Positions 17 to 21,958 of a DNA stretch of 64,000 bases are shown here, one piece after another. The stretch is from Candidatus Aminicenantes bacterium (GTDB lineage Bacteria > Acidobacteriota > Aminicenantia > Aminicenantales > Aminicenantaceae), in contig JAOUKO010000001.1 of NCBI GenBank assembly GCA_029882525.1, positions 241 to 64,240 of the forward strand. The letters are read 5' to 3'. Each line of letters starts with the position of its first letter. Position 1 is the stretch's first letter. The notes under the pieces are model-generated. The model worked only from the letters and a program-made list of their open reading frames with translations, was not told the origin of the DNA and did no database searches. A program made the translations under genes and the position numbers.

Positions 17-613
17 TTGGTGCGCCGAGTTATTGGGTTACTTTCCAAGCCCCGACAGGAATGGACACGAATTAAGGAAGAATCCCTTCCGGCTTCCCGT
101 CTTTTTTTCTCCTATGCCCTGGCTTTAGCCTCGATTCCCCCCGTGTTTCGGTTCCTGGCGGGTCTCGTCTACGGTCATTACAAGAGACCTTATACGGGAT
201 GGAGCTGGACGATTGCTGGCAGAGAGCTTCTTTTTAGTGCTGCCGTCTACATCTTATCCTTGATGATCGTTTATCTATGGGCATGGATAATCTCCATCTT
301 TGGTACTGTTTTTTCTACCCGCTGCCTGAGAAGCGATTCTCTGAAGCTGGCGGTTTTGAGCATGAGCCCCTATTGGCTGGGAGGCGTGTTTTACTTCATC
401 CCTGAGGTTGGATGGGCCTTAAAGATCCTGGCGGGATCGTACGGATTTTATCTCCTCTATCTTGGTTTTGCTGTCTATTTCTTTGAGACTTCCAGAGGGA
501 AGCTTTTAGGGTATTTTGTGGTGAGCAGCTTGTTCGGCTTGATTCTCGTGGCCTATGTTGAAGTGTTCCTGAGACTCCTTTTTGCCTTCTGGGGAGTCTT
601 AAAGATCGGCTGA
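17..613 (+). CDS. Yip1-domain (DUF1282-like) multi-pass membrane protein
   Basis: 198 aa, about 5 predicted hydrophobic helices, N-terminal motif resembling bacterial Yip1-family proteins; paralog of 16632..17327. Confidence 0.45.
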   Translation: MVRRVIGLLSKPRQEWTRIKEESLPASRLFFSYALALASIPPVFRFLAGLVYGHYKRPYTGWSWTIAGRELLFSAAVYILSLMIVYLWAWIISIFGTVFSTRCLRSDSLKLAVLSMSPYWLGGVFYFIPEVGWALKILAGSYGFYLLYLGFAVYFFETSRGKLLGYFVVSSLFGLILVAYVEVFLRLLFAFWGVLKIG

Positions 614-16274: not shown

Positions 16275-16631
16275 TTTTTACCAGAAGAAGAACAAAGAGA
16301 AGCGTTAGGAAGAGGAGAAGAGCAAGAATCTGTTTCCTTTTCAATCTATTTCTCCAATTCTTTCTGTGCTTTTGCTAAGCGCGGCTTCGAGTACTTTCCC
16401 CAAGGTTTTTTTATGAATGTGTCCAGGTTGATGTTCATCTCGCCCCTTTTCGAGATGAAGGCTCTTTTCCTCATCCTCATTTTTAGGCTCAAGTTTCCGG
16501 GCTTCTTTTTCCGTCGGAGGACAAAACAGAGATGAGTCAAGGGAGTGTTGGCGAGACTTTCCTCGGGGAGGCGTTCTTCCATACAGATAATGTATAGATG
16601 AAGGAACTCACTGTCAAACGGAAAGCGATCT

Positions 16632-17327
16632 CTACCTGCCCAGGAATCCCAGGCCGACGTAGAGAAGGCTCTTGAGGAACCAGAAACCGTAAGAAATGAA
16701 GAGGGCTTTCTTCAGCTCTACCTTGAAGACAGAAGAGAGGCCGTAGCCAAGAATTCCAAAGAGCCAGAGCTGGAAAAAGTCAAACTGGCTCAATACCCTG
16801 AAAGCAGTCGAGGTGACTTCCAGGCGGGGGAAGAAGACGGCGAGTGAGGTCGTGGTCTGGAAGATGGATTTGCGGCGGAGAATCAGGACAAGCCGGACTG
16901 CGTTCCCCAGGATTTTATCCACAAAGCTGGCATGGATGTAGACGGATAGAAGCTGCTTGTAGTTTCCTTCGGTTGAGAACATCCGGCCCATAGCCAGAAG
17001 AATCAGTGGTGGAAGGAAGAAGCCGATGAGGTTCGCAAAAAGAGGACTGATAATCGTTAAAAAGATCCGGAACCATGGTGGAGGGTTTTCCATGAATTCA
17101 AGCTGTCTGTTGAACGCCTCTTCTCCCATTCTTTCCTGTCGCCTGACGTCATTTTTCAGGGTTTGAAGCGAATCCTGGAGAAGGTAAGGCCCGATAACCG
17201 CACTAAAGATGATTAAGAGGACGAGAAGAATGATCAGCGCATCAATCCAGACAGGTTTTTCAGAGACTGCCTTAAGGGTTTCCTTAGGACTGAAAAACAC
17301 TCCCTGCAATCGGTTAAAAAAGTTCAT
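16632..17327 (-). CDS. Yip1-domain membrane protein (YknW-like), last gene of ABC/MFP operon
   Basis: 231 aa, 5 hydrophobic helices, N-terminal [18 protein letters not shown] typical of bacterial Yip1 proteins; 4-nt overlap with upstream ATPase gene. Confidence 0.5.
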
Positions 17328-18031
17328 GTCAGCCCTCCTTTGCGTTCGTCCTGGATTATCCTTCCATCTTTGAGATGGATGATTCGCTGGGCTCGTGCGG
17401 CGATATCCCTGTCGTGAGTGACGATGATGATGGTGTTTCCCTCGGAGTGAATTTTGTGGAAAAGGGAAAGGATCTCCTGACCTGTTTTGGAATCCAGGTT
17501 TCCTGTAGGCTCATCTGCTAAGAGTAAGGATGGATCGTTGACCAGGGCGCGGGCAATAGCCACTCTCTGCCTTTCGCCGCCCGAAAGCTCTGAAGGCCGG
17601 TGGTTCATCCTGTCGGTCATTTCCACCATTTGCAGCGCCTTCTTGGTCTTTTCCTCTCTTTCTTTCTTCCTGGCTCCTTTGTAGATAAGCGGGATTTCTA
17701 CGTTGTGGAATGCAGTTGCTCGAGGAAGGAGGTTAAAGACCTGGAAGACGAACCCGATCTCTCTGTTGCGGATGAAGGCCAGTTCGTTGTCGCTGAGCGT
17801 ACTCACCAGTTTTTTTTTGAGGTAATATTTTCCTTTTGTGGGAGTGTCCAGACAGCCTATGATGTTCATCAGGGTGGATTTGCCTGAGCCGGAAGGGCCC
17901 ATGATGGCCACAAATTCATTCTGATAGATGGTGAACGTGGCTTCGCGGAGAGCATTGACTTCCTGTTTTCCCAGCTGGTAGACCTTCCACAGGTCTTCTG
18001 CGGAGATAATGATGTTGTTTTCGCTGGTCAT
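17324..18031 (-). CDS. ABC transporter ATP-binding protein (MacB/LolD/YknY type)
   Basis: Walker [25 protein letters not shown] signature, Walker B LLLADEPT. Confidence 0.85.
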
Positions 18032-18036
18032 GATTT

Positions 18037-19263
18037 TTATTTTTCCTCTTTCTTTTCTTCCTGTTTGATGAGGGTGTCATCTTTGAGCTGGCGAAGGGCG
18101 CTGTAGGGCCCGACTACGATCTCCTGTCCTTCTTCCAATCCGGAGGTGATCTCGATATTCATCTCGCCCATGATTCCCTTCTTCACGGGATAGAACTTTA
18201 CGCGGCTGTTCTCGACGACATAGACTCCCTCTTCCTGCCCGTCACCTTTCTCTTTTTCTTTCTCCTCTTTTTCCCGGAGGATCAGGGCAGAGATCGGCAC
18301 AGCCAGAATGTCTTTTTTCTCCGCGGTGATGATGTCTGCCGAGGCGGAAAGACCGGGCTTGAGGCTATTGGGAGGATTCTCGAGGGTGATGACCACCTTG
18401 AAGTCCTTGGACTCCTGGGAAATGGTTGTCGTCTGCAGGGCAGAGCTGCCGATTTCGGTGACCTTCCCCTCTAGGGTCTGGTCTGGCAGGGCGTCAACTC
18501 TCACTTCTGCTCGGTGTCCGAGCTCAACTCCGATGACATCCGTTTCGTCGACTTCCACTTCAACTTCCATCACGGAGAGGTCGGCAATGGTCATCAGGAC
18601 GGTACCGGGATTGTTCATGGTGCCGATGATGGCCACCTCCCCTTCCTCGACTCGGAGACTGGTGATGATTCCATCAATCGGAGAGTTGTAAACGGTTTTG
18701 CTGAGTGTATCCAGGGTGCTCTCAAGGGAAGCTTGCGCCTGTTCGATTTGGTAAATGATAGCCTTGTGCTGGGCTTTCGATATATCATACTGGGCTTCAG
18801 CCGCTTCCAGCTGCTCTTCTGAAATGAGGTCTTCTTCGAAAAGCTTTTTTTGTCTTTGATAAAAGCTTTCATCTTTTTTCAGTGTGGCTTCAGCACGTAT
18901 GAGTTCAGCTCTGTGGGAGGAGATAAGAGCACGGTCACGGTTAGCCATGGCCTCGAATTGGGTCGAGTCAAGCTTCAGGAGGAAATCATCCTTCTTGACT
19001 CTTTGCCCTTCCTCTACACCTATCTTGACGATTCTCCCCGAGACATGGGCACTGATGTTCACGTTTTTTTTGGGCTTGACTTCCCCTGAGGCTGAGATCT
19101 TCGAGGTCAAGTTGTCTTTTTTGACCTTCTCCACAGTCACTCGTATGGATTTTTCTCGCTGTGATTGAAGGTTGAAGATGACGATGATAGCGATAAAGAC
19201 GATGACGGCGGAAATGATGATTGCTTTTTTTCTTCTCTTAAAGAAGCTCTTTTTTTCACTCAT
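18037..19263 (-). CDS. periplasmic adaptor / membrane-fusion protein (HlyD/MacA/YknX family)
   Basis: N-terminal TM anchor, biotinyl-lipoyl-like hairpin GEVKP...[11 protein letters not shown], long coiled-coil, beta-barrel C-terminus. Confidence 0.75.
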
Positions 19264-19326
19264 CTCTTGTGCCTCTCTGGATTTGTTATCTTATTATATT
19301 ACGGAATAAAAGGCAAAAAGTTTAGG

Positions 19327-19606
19327 AGGAACATTTCCAAATCCGTGATGAAAGAATGATTTTGGAAATCCCCTCGCTCCCTTCAGATTTTTAACGCCAT
19401 TCCTTCACCGCCCTCTGCGGCGGTCTCAAAACTGCGCACTTCAACGTTAAGCTCAAAAGGAATATCCGAACTATCATCTCACATCTCCCTTTGATTCTCT
19501 TCTGCTCAAACATTTCGACCGGCCGGAAGGCTTCCCTTGAGGGCGTTTCAGTAAGGCTAAATCTTCAAGGTCGCTTCGGATTTTTCCAAAATCATTTCCA
19601 TCCGTC
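19327..19606. repeat. Family-B MITE copy (TIR GGAAC..GGAAATC..CGCTCC..GATTTTTAACGCC)
   Basis: Ends match the 40-bp terminal inverted repeats of the 31705-32103 element; internal similarity to 31740-31990. Confidence 0.6.
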
Positions 19607-19705
19607 TTTACTATAATAGATTTGCCAATGCTTACAGATTACGGGGAGTCTACCCTAATATGTGGCTTGAAAAGGGAGAGGTTGGTAATGTAATATGGAA
19701 GGATT

Positions 19706-20578: not shown

Positions 20579-21958
20579 ATGAGGAAAGAGAAAAAAATGA
20601 GGATGAAACCCGGAAGGAGAAAAGGCAAGCTCCTCTCTCTGGGCTTATGGATGTCCGGCCTTTTTGTATTCGCATCTTTTTTATTGATCGGCTTGGCTCC
20701 GGGTCAGGGCCTCAGCTCGAATCCGCAGGAAGAGGAGAGCGAAAGGGAATTCGATTTTATTCCTGAGAGAGATGAGATCATCTATGCCCGGAGAATCGCA
20801 GCTGGGATAGAAGAGGAGGCAGACGTCATAAAAAATGAATCCTTGAATGACTTCCTGGAAGGAATCGGGAGAAGAATTGTTGACCAGAACAACCTCAAGG
20901 AGCTGGTCGGGGATTGGGAGTGGTCTTTCAGGATCATCGATACTCCAGGTATGAATGCTTTCGTCACCCTAGGAGGGCAGGTCTTTGTGAGCAGCGACCT
21001 GGTTGAGGCCATGGAGACAGAGTCCGAGCTGGCCGCGGTTCTGGCTTTTGAGCTGGGGCATCTCGCTGCCCGTCATATTCATCAGCACATTTTCGAGAGG
21101 CTGACTCGACAGAGTGATTTCTTACCTGAGGAGACAATCAGCGGTGAGAGAGGCTGGGAGATTCTTTCCAGGATTTTCATGTCTGAAGGAGGCATCCTGG
21201 CCTTTTTTTCAGGACTGCAACACAACTCTCTCCAGGTAGAGAAGGCCGATGAGCTCTCTCTCTTAAGCTGCTTCAATGCTGAGTACAATCCCCAAGACCT
21301 TCTTATCTTGCTCAGCCGGATGGGAAGAAGAGAAAGGCCGCTATCTCCCTGGTTGAGGAGGAATCCCTGGAGCGAGAAAAGACGAAGGGAGATGTCCTCC
21401 AGCCTGAGTATGCTTCCGTCTTCCACCTTTCCGACCGAGCCTTCAAGGTTCAGGGAATTCAAATCCTTGCTCAGGTCGTTGGCCAGCCTTTCCCTTCGGC
21501 GTGACCTGCGTATGCCTCAATCAGGCAGAGAAATATTCCTGGATGTCACCGTGATGGGCAACAAGGACTGGACGGATACCGGCGTTGAGGTCTATGAAGG
21601 ACAGGAAATTTCATTCCAGGCCTTCGGGACCATATACCTCCAGAAGGGGAATCCCGCCCGCTGCAGTCCGGACGGTTATGACCTCAGGACAATGCAACAG
21701 CCGTTTCCCGATAGAAACATTGGGGCCCTTATCGGCAAAGTGGCTGTTCTCATTTCCATGGAGGTCGATGAGGAATCAGGAAAAGAGACTCGTTACGAGA
21801 TCAAGGAGAAGTTTTTTATCGGAGCAGAGAGTCAGATGAGAATGCCCATCAGCGGACGGCTTTTTCTGGGGATCAACGAGAACCTTGTGGGCGATAATGA
21901 CGGGGCCTTCAGTGTCAGTATCGTTTCTGTGCCTGTCAGGCAGAATCCTTCCCGTTAG
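20579..21958 (+). CDS. M48-like metallopeptidase homolog with degenerate zinc motif (FELGH) plus C-terminal PA-IL-lectin-like beta domain
   Basis: Signal/TM anchor; M48 (BepA/HtpX-like) core with FELGHLAARH where HEXXH is expected, EKADELS third-ligand region; C-terminus ...ALIGKV...GAFSVSIVSV resembles PA-IL/LecA fold. Confidence 0.5.
   Translation: MRKEKKMRMKPGRRKGKLLSLGLWMSGLFVFASFLLIGLAPGQGLSSNPQEEESEREFDFIPERDEIIYARRIAAGIEEEADVIKNESLNDFLEGIGRRIVDQNNLKELVGDWEWSFRIIDTPGMNAFVTLGGQVFVSSDLVEAMETESELAAVLAFELGHLAARHIHQHIFERLTRQSDFLPEETISGERGWEILSRIFMSEGGILAFFSGLQHNSLQVEKADELSLLSCFNAEYNPQDLLILLSRMGRRERPLSPWLRRNPWSEKRRREMSSSLSMLPSSTFPTEPSRFREFKSLLRSLASLSLRRDLRMPQSGREIFLDVTVMGNKDWTDTGVEVYEGQEISFQAFGTIYLQKGNPARCSPDGYDLRTMQQPFPDRNIGALIGKVAVLISMEVDEESGKETRYEIKEKFFIGAESQMRMPISGRLFLGINENLVGDNDGAFSVSIVSVPVRQNPSR

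What the first reader, a model, noticed from the sequence alone, without database searches (positions are those of the whole stretch)
16632..19263. YknWXY-like operon: membrane-fusion protein + MacB-type ABC ATPase + Yip1-domain protein, but no FtsX permease
On the minus strand, an HlyD/MacA-type adaptor (408 aa), a LolD/MacB-type ABC ATPase (235 aa) and a 231-aa Yip1-domain membrane protein are tightly coupled by 4-nt overlaps. They resemble Bacillus YknX, YknY and YknW. The expected YknZ/FtsX-type permease is missing: the next ORF is a doubtful 78-aa basic peptide, then miaA. Either the Yip1-domain protein is the transmembrane partner of the ATPase, an unusual ABC architecture, or the permease is encoded elsewhere. 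A second Yip1 paralog is at 17-613.
Basis: partly seen in the sequence, partly recalled or inferred. Interest (0 to 1): 0.5.

Follow-up and report, generated by a model that had tools for sequence, protein, structure and literature searches.

The report
Efflux-pump operon lacking its permease gene
An uncultured Aminicenantes bacterium, like every relative examined from its class, carries an operon for the adaptor, the ATPase and a Yip1-type helper membrane protein of a MacAB/YknWXYZ-type efflux pump. The gene for the membrane permease that such ATPases normally drive is absent from the locus, and it is not yet known what replaces it.

Summary
On the minus strand lie a MacA/YknX-type adaptor (18037-19263), a MacB-type ABC ATPase (17324-18031) and a Yip1/YknW-like membrane protein (16632-17327). 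miaA follows after a 357-nt spacer. No FtsX permease exists in the 64-kb window or its 73-kb contig.

This is not a deletion or an assembly gap. The same trio, in the same order and tightly coupled, occurs in all 84 loci first analysed (about 80 Aminicenantes species) and in eight further loci. None has FtsX within 8-10 kb.

Distant Yip1 relatives in other diderm phyla (5 of 5 sampled) head complete operons: Yip1, TolC-like, adaptor, ATPase, two FtsX permeases.

The window ATPase is 60-65% identical to those FtsX-coupled ATPases, including the Q-loop region. The Yip1 protein aligns with the accessory-type proteins end to end, with no added element, and has no detectable similarity to FtsX.

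I therefore favour (about 0.5) a split pump whose permease and outer-membrane duct are encoded elsewhere, with Yip1 as a YknW-like assembly factor. The alternative, Yip1 as the ATPase's membrane subunit (about 0.2), is not excluded. The decisive genome-wide search for orphan FtsX genes could not be run.

The parts
18037..19263 (-). Membrane-fusion (periplasmic adaptor) protein of the MacA/YknX type, 408 aa. It has an N-terminal membrane anchor at about residues 14-31.
   Evidence: TIGR01730 188.5 bits, MacA NF008606 148.9 bits, Pfam HlyD_D23 and HlyD_3. The best PDB relatives are MacA chains, E 3e-32. Orthologues carry the precomputed Pfam Beta-barrel_YknX and YknX_C domains. A single hydrophobic segment lies at the N-terminus.
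17324..18031 (-). MacB/YknY-type ABC ATPase (nucleotide-binding subunit only), 235 aa, with all catalytic motifs intact.
   Evidence: ABC_tran 116 bits, MacB NBD 258 bits, LolD 246 bits, both below their cut-offs. PDB: 5xu1_A at 1e-73, then MJ0796, MacB and LolD. It is 60-65% identical to the ATPases of FtsX-containing operons. Only 7 clade-specific positions were found.
16632..17327 (-). Yip1-domain (YknW-like) integral membrane protein, 231 aa. Its start overlaps the ATPase stop by 4 nt (ATGA).
   Evidence: Pfam Yip1 53.9 bits against a 28.6 cut-off; NCBIfam YknW_fam 74.7 bits, below its 110 cut-off. The AlphaFold2 model has pLDDT 76 and five long helices. 695 homologues were found, the closest from Candidatus Aminicenantes. 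It is homologous over its full length to the distant Yip1 relatives that include heads of complete pump operons (hhalign probability 100).
16275..16631 (-). Spacer between the Yip1 gene and miaA. It contains a non-conserved 78-aa ORF (16346-16582). Most relatives carry a DUF4388/PatA_N gene of about 367 aa at this position.
   Evidence: The ORF has no family hit and no tblastn counterpart in the relatives tested; only the last ~90 nt before miaA are conserved. 57 of 84 loci have the DUF4388 gene here. Fragments of that gene survive in L063 and L013, two loci that lack it intact. No Rfam match.
19264..19705 (.). Divergent intergenic region between the adaptor gene and the inositol-monophosphatase gene. 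It is the presumed promoter region of the operon.
   Evidence: ORF map and sequence. The consensus scan found nothing above the shuffle expectation, so the promoter is inferred, not shown.

Best explanation
This is the conserved engine-and-adaptor part of a MacAB/YknWXYZ-type (type VII ABC) envelope efflux system. The FtsX/MacB-type permease, and the TolC-like outer-membrane duct, are not encoded with it.

Inferred mechanism:
- The ATPase dimer docks on the coupling helix of one or more FtsX-type permeases encoded elsewhere in the genome.
- ATP binding is transmitted through the permease to its periplasmic domain.
- The hexameric adaptor links that domain to an outer-membrane duct.
- The Yip1 protein acts as Bacillus YknW is thought to act. 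It is made in step with the ATPase through the overlapping stop and start codons, and it organises or gates assembly of adaptor, ATPase and permease.

Shown here: the gene content, the tight coupling, conservation across the class, and homology to complete pumps in other phyla. Inferred: the trans-encoded permease, and the idea that one housekeeping-located module could serve several orphan permeases.
For: 1. The trio is fixed. All 84 loci first analysed (about 80 GTDB species, out of 132 species with a hit) keep adaptor, ATPase and Yip1 in that order wherever the contig reaches. The Yip1 start lies within a few nucleotides of the ATPase stop. This persists down to about 40% Yip1 identity.

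2. Distant family members sit in complete pumps. In 5 of 5 sampled loci the order is Yip1, OEP, YknX-like adaptor, ATPase, then two MacB_PCD+FtsX permeases. In L101, two Yip1 genes follow an ABC-2 exporter that has its own membrane subunits. In every sampled non-X-Y-W ABC context, therefore, Yip1 is an extra and not the permease.

3. The window ATPase is 60-65% identical to those FtsX-coupled ATPases. Only 7 conservative clade-specific substitutions separate them. The segment from the Q-loop into the helical subdomain (GFVFQxFNLLPRAxAxHNVE(L/I)PLIY) is essentially the same. By general ABC-transporter knowledge this region lines the groove that receives the coupling helix. In MacB that helix lies between TM2 and TM3 (PMC5985334).

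4. The Aminicenantes Yip1 profile aligns end to end with the distant, accessory-type profile, with no added segment. It has no detectable similarity to FtsX. None of the 150 best family representatives is long enough to carry a fused ABC or FtsX domain.

5. In B. subtilis, YknW associates with YknX and YknYZ and modulates assembly (PMC4887032, PMC4338810, PMC5985334).

6. Orphan FtsX-type permeases are a recognised feature of Acidobacteriota, the phylum in which GTDB places Aminicenantes. The ADOP family (TIGR03434) is in NCBIfam. That its genes lack adjacent ATPase genes, and the phylum placement, are from my own knowledge of the model's description and of GTDB.
Against: No orphan permease was shown in any Aminicenantes genome. 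The FtsX profile search returned no named Aminicenantes protein among its best 120, which is uninformative either way.

ATPase and permease genes of ABC systems are usually adjacent. A class-wide separation, seen again in a second lineage in a different genomic context (L093), is unusual.

The Yip1 gene sits exactly where the permease gene sits in canonical operons, and it is translationally coupled to the ATPase.

The adaptors of the two permease-less lineages resemble each other (49-50%) more than they resemble canonical adaptors (32-42%). This could reflect a different membrane partner.

Q-loop conservation is partly explained by catalysis rather than by partner choice.
Confidence: 0.5

Rival explanations
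1. The Yip1 protein is itself the membrane subunit of the ATPase. This would be a new ABC architecture: a (Yip1)2(NBD)2 core capped by a MacA-like adaptor, in which the 5-helix Yip1 protein replaces the 4-helix FtsX permease.
For: Yip1 occupies the permease slot directly after the ATPase, with a 4-nt overlap. The arrangement without FtsX or OEP is fixed in all Aminicenantes loci examined. It recurs in a second lineage with a different neighbourhood (L093). The adaptors of these two lineages cluster together and away from canonical ones. The N-terminal amphipathic segment and the short loop 114-122 ([10 protein letters not shown]) are nearly invariant. They are probably cytoplasmic, which is an inference from the model and hydropathy. 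They could be contact sites for the ATPase.
Against: The ATPase shows no adaptation. It is 60-65% identical to FtsX-coupled ATPases, with the Q-loop and helical-subdomain region unchanged. The Yip1 protein has no element beyond those of accessory-type relatives. By reading the sequences, it has nothing resembling the FtsX ERTREIGIRKA motif (sequences), which lies where the MacB review places the coupling helix. Profile comparison with FtsX is null. Fold searches show no similarity to any ABC membrane domain above the helical-bundle noise. No ABC-Yip1 fusion proteins were seen. A periplasmic loop of about 35 residues cannot replace the MacB periplasmic domain that the adaptor normally caps (PMC5985334).
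Confidence: 0.2
2. The trio is not a transporter. It is an ATP-driven envelope device or sensor in which ATPase, Yip1 and the membrane-anchored adaptor act without any permease. It would be loosely analogous to FtsEX, which uses ATP to drive periplasmic events rather than transport.
For: It sits in a housekeeping neighbourhood (accBC, ffh, miaA, hflX) rather than a resistance island. In most relatives a cytoplasmic DUF4388/PatA_N gene, from a family of probable interaction or signalling proteins, lies directly downstream. The MacB family works by mechanotransmission rather than by transport across the membrane (PMC5985334).
Against: Known mechanotransmission systems still need the FtsX membrane subunit. 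The adaptor's assignment to the MacA/YknX class suggests it bridges to an outer-membrane duct, that is, export. The DUF4388 gene is dispensable in the window's own subclade. No positive evidence exists for a signalling output.
Confidence: 0.1
3. The permease gene was lost recently, or was missed by assembly, in this genome. The operon would then be a decaying remnant.
For: Only the short 357-nt spacer with a dubious 78-aa ORF after the Yip1 gene.
Against: Identical gene order in independent assemblies from ENA and JGI. All three genes are intact. The same permease-less trio occurs in all Aminicenantes loci examined, at 37-95% Yip1 identity. The gene at the spacer position in relatives is DUF4388, not FtsX. 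There is no FtsX-like remnant by tblastn.
Confidence: 0.02

Closest known systems
Bacillus subtilis YknWXYZ four-component exporter, which protects against the SDP toxin (Yamada et al. 2012, as described in PMC4887032, PMC4338810 and PMC5985334)
   Same: The same three protein classes are present: a Yip1-family membrane protein (YknW), a MacA-like adaptor (YknX) and a separate MacB-type ATPase (YknY). The window's Yip1 protein matches the NCBIfam YknW family model at E 7e-21. Its adaptor orthologues carry the Pfam YknX-specific domains.
   Different: There is no YknZ (FtsX) permease in the operon. The gene order is X-Y-W instead of W-X-Y-Z. The host is a presumed diderm (Aminicenantes), not a Gram-positive. 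The YknW-family score is below the model's cut-off (74.7 against 110 bits).
Diderm YknW-led operons found here (L086 from candidate division KSB1; L087 and L088, probably Zixibacteria; L091; L092): Yip1, TolC-like OEP, adaptor, ATPase, two FtsX permeases
   Same: All three proteins are homologous: ATPase 60-65% identity, adaptor 35-42%, Yip1 24-29% but alignable over the full length at hhalign probability 100.
   Different: Those operons encode the outer-membrane duct and two MacB_PCD+FtsX permeases in cis, and they put Yip1 first. The window has neither the duct nor a permease, and it puts Yip1 last.
E. coli MacAB-TolC tripartite pump (type VII ABC, mechanotransmission)
   Same: A MacA-type adaptor (best PDB hits) and a MacB-type nucleotide-binding domain (45% identity). 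tolC is also encoded away from macAB in E. coli (my own knowledge).
   Different: In MacB the ATPase is fused to the FtsX-type membrane and periplasmic domains. MacAB has no Yip1 component.
ADOP (Acidobacterial duplicated orphan permease, TIGR03434)
   Same: It is the mirror-image oddity in the same phylum: FtsX/MacB-type permeases encoded without an adjacent ATPase (family description from my own knowledge; the model is present in NCBIfam).
   Different: No ADOP or other orphan FtsX gene was shown in Aminicenantes here. A link to this operon is a hypothesis only.

Membership tests
YknWXYZ / MacAB-type (type VII ABC) tripartite or four-component exporter | Periplasmic adaptor of the MacA/YknX class | tested here: met
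   TIGR01730 scores 188.5 bits against a 94.9 cut-off. MacA chains are the best PDB relatives. Orthologues carry the Beta-barrel_YknX and YknX_C domains.
YknWXYZ / MacAB-type (type VII ABC) tripartite or four-component exporter | MacB-family nucleotide-binding subunit with intact catalytic motifs | tested here: met
   The best NCBIfam and PDB matches are the MacB NBD, Spr0694, MJ0796 and LolD. The motifs were read in the alignment.
YknWXYZ / MacAB-type (type VII ABC) tripartite or four-component exporter | FtsX-type permease with a MacB periplasmic domain, encoded with the ATPase | tested here: not met
   There is none in the 64-kb window, none in the 73-kb contig, and none within 8-10 kb in 84 loci analysed in bulk or 8 further loci. 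Whether one is encoded elsewhere in the genome could not be tested.
YknWXYZ / MacAB-type (type VII ABC) tripartite or four-component exporter | Yip1-family fourth component (YknW) | tested here: inconclusive
   The Pfam Yip1 domain is met (53.9 against 28.6 bits). The NCBIfam YknW_fam equivalog model scores 74.7 bits, below its 110-bit cut-off. So the protein is homologous, but it is not a certified equivalog.
YknWXYZ / MacAB-type (type VII ABC) tripartite or four-component exporter | Outer-membrane factor (TolC-like) for the diderm version | tested here: not met
   No OEP gene was seen in the window ORFs scanned, and none in the called genes of the Aminicenantes loci. The distant operons have one in cis. 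One encoded elsewhere in the genome was not tested.
Pfam Yip1 (PF04893) | Score above the gathering threshold over the whole domain, with a multi-helix membrane topology | tested here: met
   53.9 bits, covering residues 9-224. The model has five long helices. No solved structure of the family exists to compare with.
LolCDE / FtsEX (other split MacB-superfamily systems) | ATPase scoring as LolD or FtsE above the equivalog cut-off | tested here: not met
   LolD TIGR02211 scores 246.1 bits, below 307.75. FtsE TIGR02673 scores 221.7 bits, below 264.85.
ABC transporter membrane domain (any known type), for the Yip1 protein | Homology or fold similarity to a known ABC membrane domain, or a coupling-helix motif | tested here: not met

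The most novel reading that the evidence does not exclude
In Aminicenantes, and in at least one other lineage, a Yip1-domain protein has taken the place of the FtsX permease as the membrane subunit of a MacB-type ATPase. This would be a previously undescribed ABC architecture (Yip1 + NBD + MacA-like adaptor). It would also give the first mechanistic role to the bacterial Yip1 fold. A milder novel reading is that the trio is a shared, housekeeping-encoded engine for orphan FtsX/ADOP-type permeases, which would explain where those permeases get their ATPase.
Probability: 0.2. Interest if true: 0.85.

Novelty: new variant of a known kind. Interest (0 to 1): 0.45.

Why it matters
ABC ATPases are not known to work without a dedicated membrane partner, and that partner is nearly always encoded beside them.

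Here a whole bacterial class keeps the ATPase, the adaptor and an enigmatic Yip1 protein together, in a housekeeping neighbourhood, without the permease.

If the permease is elsewhere, this is a clear case of a split, possibly shared, engine module. It would also be a lead on the unexplained orphan FtsX/ADOP permeases of Acidobacteriota.

If there is no permease, the Yip1 protein defines a new kind of ABC membrane subunit.

Either way, the comparison shows that YknW-like Yip1 proteins are regular components of MacAB-type pumps in several diderm phyla. [quoted passage not shown]

Tried and rejected
1. Deletion or assembly gap: rejected. Independent assemblies give the identical order, and the trio without FtsX is class-wide.

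2. The 78-aa ORF as a gene: rejected. It has no family hit and no conservation. In the window, the spacer shows only non-significant similarity to the DUF4388 gene found in relatives.

3. A degenerate FtsX remnant: none by tblastn with the E. coli MacB membrane part. The multi-helix ORFs in the flanks are a Bac_transf sugar transferase and a MatE transporter.

5. Sequence search of the PDB with the Yip1 profile: no hit.

6. Search for ABC-Yip1 fusion proteins: none among the 150 best representatives, all 75-285 aa.

7. Attempt to find Aminicenantes FtsX proteins with a profile of 8 canonical permeases. The best 120 were from other phyla (Zixibacteria, Deltaproteobacteria, Zhuqueibacterota) or unnamed, so the question stays open.

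8. Metagenome scans:
   - The mixed alignment had no searchable stretch.
   - The P0154/P0139 clade gave no confirmed hit.
   - The P0130/P0125 scan mostly returned more Aminicenantes-type loci.

9. Literature: nothing on Yip1 together with ABC and FtsX in bacteria beyond YknW, and nothing on Aminicenantes together with FtsX.

10. Rfam scan and promoter/terminator scans of the locus: nothing above chance.
Full report
**What is there.**
- Three consecutive ORFs lie on the minus strand: a 408-aa membrane-fusion protein (18037-19263), a 235-aa ABC ATPase (17324-18031) and a 231-aa membrane protein (16632-17327).
- The HMM assignments are solid.
  - The adaptor passes TIGR01730 (188.5 bits, cut-off 94.9). 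It resembles MacA most among solved structures.
  - The ATPase is of the MacB/LolD class. It falls below the equivalog cut-offs for MacB, LolD and FtsE. Its best PDB relative is the ATPase of the S. pneumoniae MacAB-like pump, 5xu1.
  - The third protein passes Pfam Yip1 (53.9 against 28.6 bits). It matches the NCBIfam YknW family at E 7e-21, which is below that model's cut-off.
- The ATPase stop and the Yip1 start overlap (ATGA), with a Shine-Dalgarno box upstream. The adaptor and ATPase genes are 5 nt apart.
- Downstream come a 357-nt spacer, then miaA and hflX.
- None of the ORFs of at least 150 aa that were scanned against Pfam is an FtsX or MacB_PCD protein. tblastn with the E. coli MacB membrane part finds nothing. 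The 9 kb beyond the window on a 73-kb contig holds type IV pilus or type II secretion genes.

**Whose genome.** The closest homologues are from Candidatus Aminicenantes. GTDB treats this group as a class of Acidobacteriota (my own knowledge).

**Is the missing permease an accident?** No.
- Independent ENA and JGI assemblies carry the identical arrangement.
- A scan of one genome per GTDB species found relatives of the Yip1 protein in 132 species. The 80 loci kept were almost all labelled Aminicenantes.
- In those 80 loci plus 4 from protein look-ups, 82 of 84 have the ATPase directly upstream of Yip1. The other two are cut by a contig end. 78 have all three genes, and the rest are cut.
- The distance from the ATPase stop to the Yip1 stop is 691-717 nt, about the length of the Yip1 gene. 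Its start therefore abuts or overlaps the ATPase stop in all of them.
- The unmatched multi-helix ORFs in the flanks are a sugar transferase and a MatE transporter, not FtsX.
- Deep-branching members keep the same block: accBC, inositol-monophosphatase, adaptor, ATPase, Yip1, (DUF4388), miaA, hflX. Their Yip1 protein is only about 40% identical to the window's.

**The spacer.**
- In 57 of the 84 loci a cytoplasmic DUF4388/PatA_N protein of about 367 aa is encoded between Yip1 and miaA.
- The window's subclade lacks it. Fragments survive in two loci that lack the intact gene, L063 and L013.
- The 78-aa ORF is not conserved.
- What was lost here is therefore a soluble protein gene, not a permease gene.

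**The wider family.**
- An exhaustive HMMER search found 931 clusters of relatives. The 150 listed are at most 285 aa, so there are no fusions to ABC or FtsX domains.
- I looked up the genomic context of distant members (24-29% identity). In 5 of 5 cases (candidate division KSB1, two probable Zixibacteria, two unnamed) the Yip1 gene heads a complete operon: Yip1, TolC-like OEP, YknX-like adaptor, ATPase, two MacB_PCD+FtsX permeases.
- This is a diderm edition of Bacillus yknWXYZ.
- In another contig (L101) two Yip1 genes follow an ABC-2 exporter that has its own two membrane subunits and a C39 peptidase.
- One further lineage repeats the permease-less order (adaptor, ATPase, Yip1) in an unrelated neighbourhood, followed by a convergent comEC gene (L093, protein P0154).

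**Which reading fits better.**
- The window ATPase is 60-65% identical to the ATPases that sit next to FtsX genes. That is almost as close as those ATPases are to one another, at 66-74%.
- Across 81 Aminicenantes ATPases, only 7 positions are fixed and different from the four canonical ones. All are conservative changes. The segment from the Q-loop into the helical subdomain is shared.
- By general knowledge of ABC transporters, that region lines the groove that takes the coupling helix. In the MacB family the coupling helix lies between TM2 and TM3 of the FtsX-type domain (PMC5985334).
- The Yip1 profile of Aminicenantes aligns with the distant profile over its whole length, with no extra element. 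It shows nothing in common with FtsX.
- The AlphaFold2 model (pLDDT 76, five long helices) resembles no solved ABC membrane domain.
- In Bacillus, YknW associates with YknX and YknYZ and affects assembly. Its role is still called enigmatic.
- Together these points favour a pump whose permease and outer-membrane duct are encoded elsewhere, with Yip1 as the assembly factor.
- The ADOP family of orphan FtsX-type permeases in Acidobacteriota (TIGR03434, present in NCBIfam; its orphan status is from my own knowledge) makes a trans arrangement plausible in this phylum. It suggests that the trio might be a shared engine.

**What speaks for the more novel reading.**
- Yip1 sits in the permease slot and is translationally coupled to the ATPase.
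- The permease-less order is ancient and fixed. It is found in two lineages.
- The adaptors of those two lineages are closer to each other (49-50%) than to canonical adaptors (32-42%).
- The near-invariant N-terminal amphipathic segment and the loop 114-122 could be contact sites.
- I could not show a single orphan FtsX gene in Aminicenantes. The one profile search I could afford returned only other phyla among its best 120. The genome-scale collections could not be searched again. The Yip1-as-subunit reading therefore stays open, at about 0.2.

**Verdict.**
- It cannot be filed as a full member of that family, because the defining permease is absent in cis.
- It most likely works like a split version of such a pump.
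- It is a new variant of a known kind, of moderate interest.
- A cheap decisive test exists: an FtsX census of the two complete Aminicenantes chromosomes, and a multimer prediction.

Noticed in passing
L011:10743-11852 (+), and the same position in 57 of 84 loci; window spacer 16275-16631: Most Aminicenantes encode a cytoplasmic DUF4388/PatA_N protein of about 367 aa directly after the Yip1 gene and before miaA, possibly as a fourth operon member. The window's subclade has lost it. Gene fragments persist in L063 (C-terminal third) and L013 (N-terminal part).
   Followed up: partly
L086, L087, L088, L091, L092: YknW-like Yip1 genes head complete six-gene operons (Yip1, OEP, adaptor, ATPase, FtsX, FtsX) in KSB1, probable Zixibacteria and other diderm lineages. 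A 2018 review describes YknW as not found in conventional Gram-negative tripartite systems.
   Followed up: partly
L093:2099-4627: A second lineage has adaptor, ATPase and Yip1 with overlapping genes and no FtsX, in a different neighbourhood (two BPD_transp_1 permease genes upstream, a convergent comEC gene downstream). The contig is unnamed, from sequencing run ERR15087768. The organism was not identified.
   Followed up: partly
L101:3959-8714: A cluster of C39 peptidase, two ABC-2-type membrane proteins and an ABC ATPase is followed by two tandem Yip1 genes. One of these is 41% identical to the window's protein. Yip1 proteins therefore also accompany ABC-2-type, probably peptide-exporting, systems.
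   Followed up: partly
window 17-613 (+): A second Yip1-domain ORF (198 aa, Pfam 47.8 bits) shows no BLAST similarity to the first and has no NCBIfam family hit. It converges on pyrF. Its upstream neighbours lie outside the window.
   Followed up: partly
window 16275-16365 (minus strand, just upstream of miaA): About 77-91 nt immediately upstream of the miaA start are conserved at 74-77% identity in relatives, although the rest of the spacer is not. There is no Rfam match. This could be a leader, a promoter or an upstream extension of miaA.
   Followed up: partly
window 20579-21958 (+): A 459-aa M48-peptidase gene lies between the inositol-monophosphatase gene and accC. It is found in only some relatives (L005, L012, L032, L045, L067). 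Others, such as L001 and L003, have an unrelated ORF of about 200 aa there.
   Followed up: no
window 18037-18330 (C-terminal part of the adaptor): A low-complexity glutamate/lysine-rich insert ([17 protein letters not shown]) and an EEKKEEK tail occur in the membrane-proximal part of the adaptor. Their conservation was not examined.
   Followed up: no
L106:998-8509 (contig beyond the window end): A type IV pilus or type II secretion cluster (T2SSF, T2SSE/MshEN, and a secretin with a cohesin domain) lies just past the window's histidine kinase and sigma-54 regulator pair.
   Followed up: no
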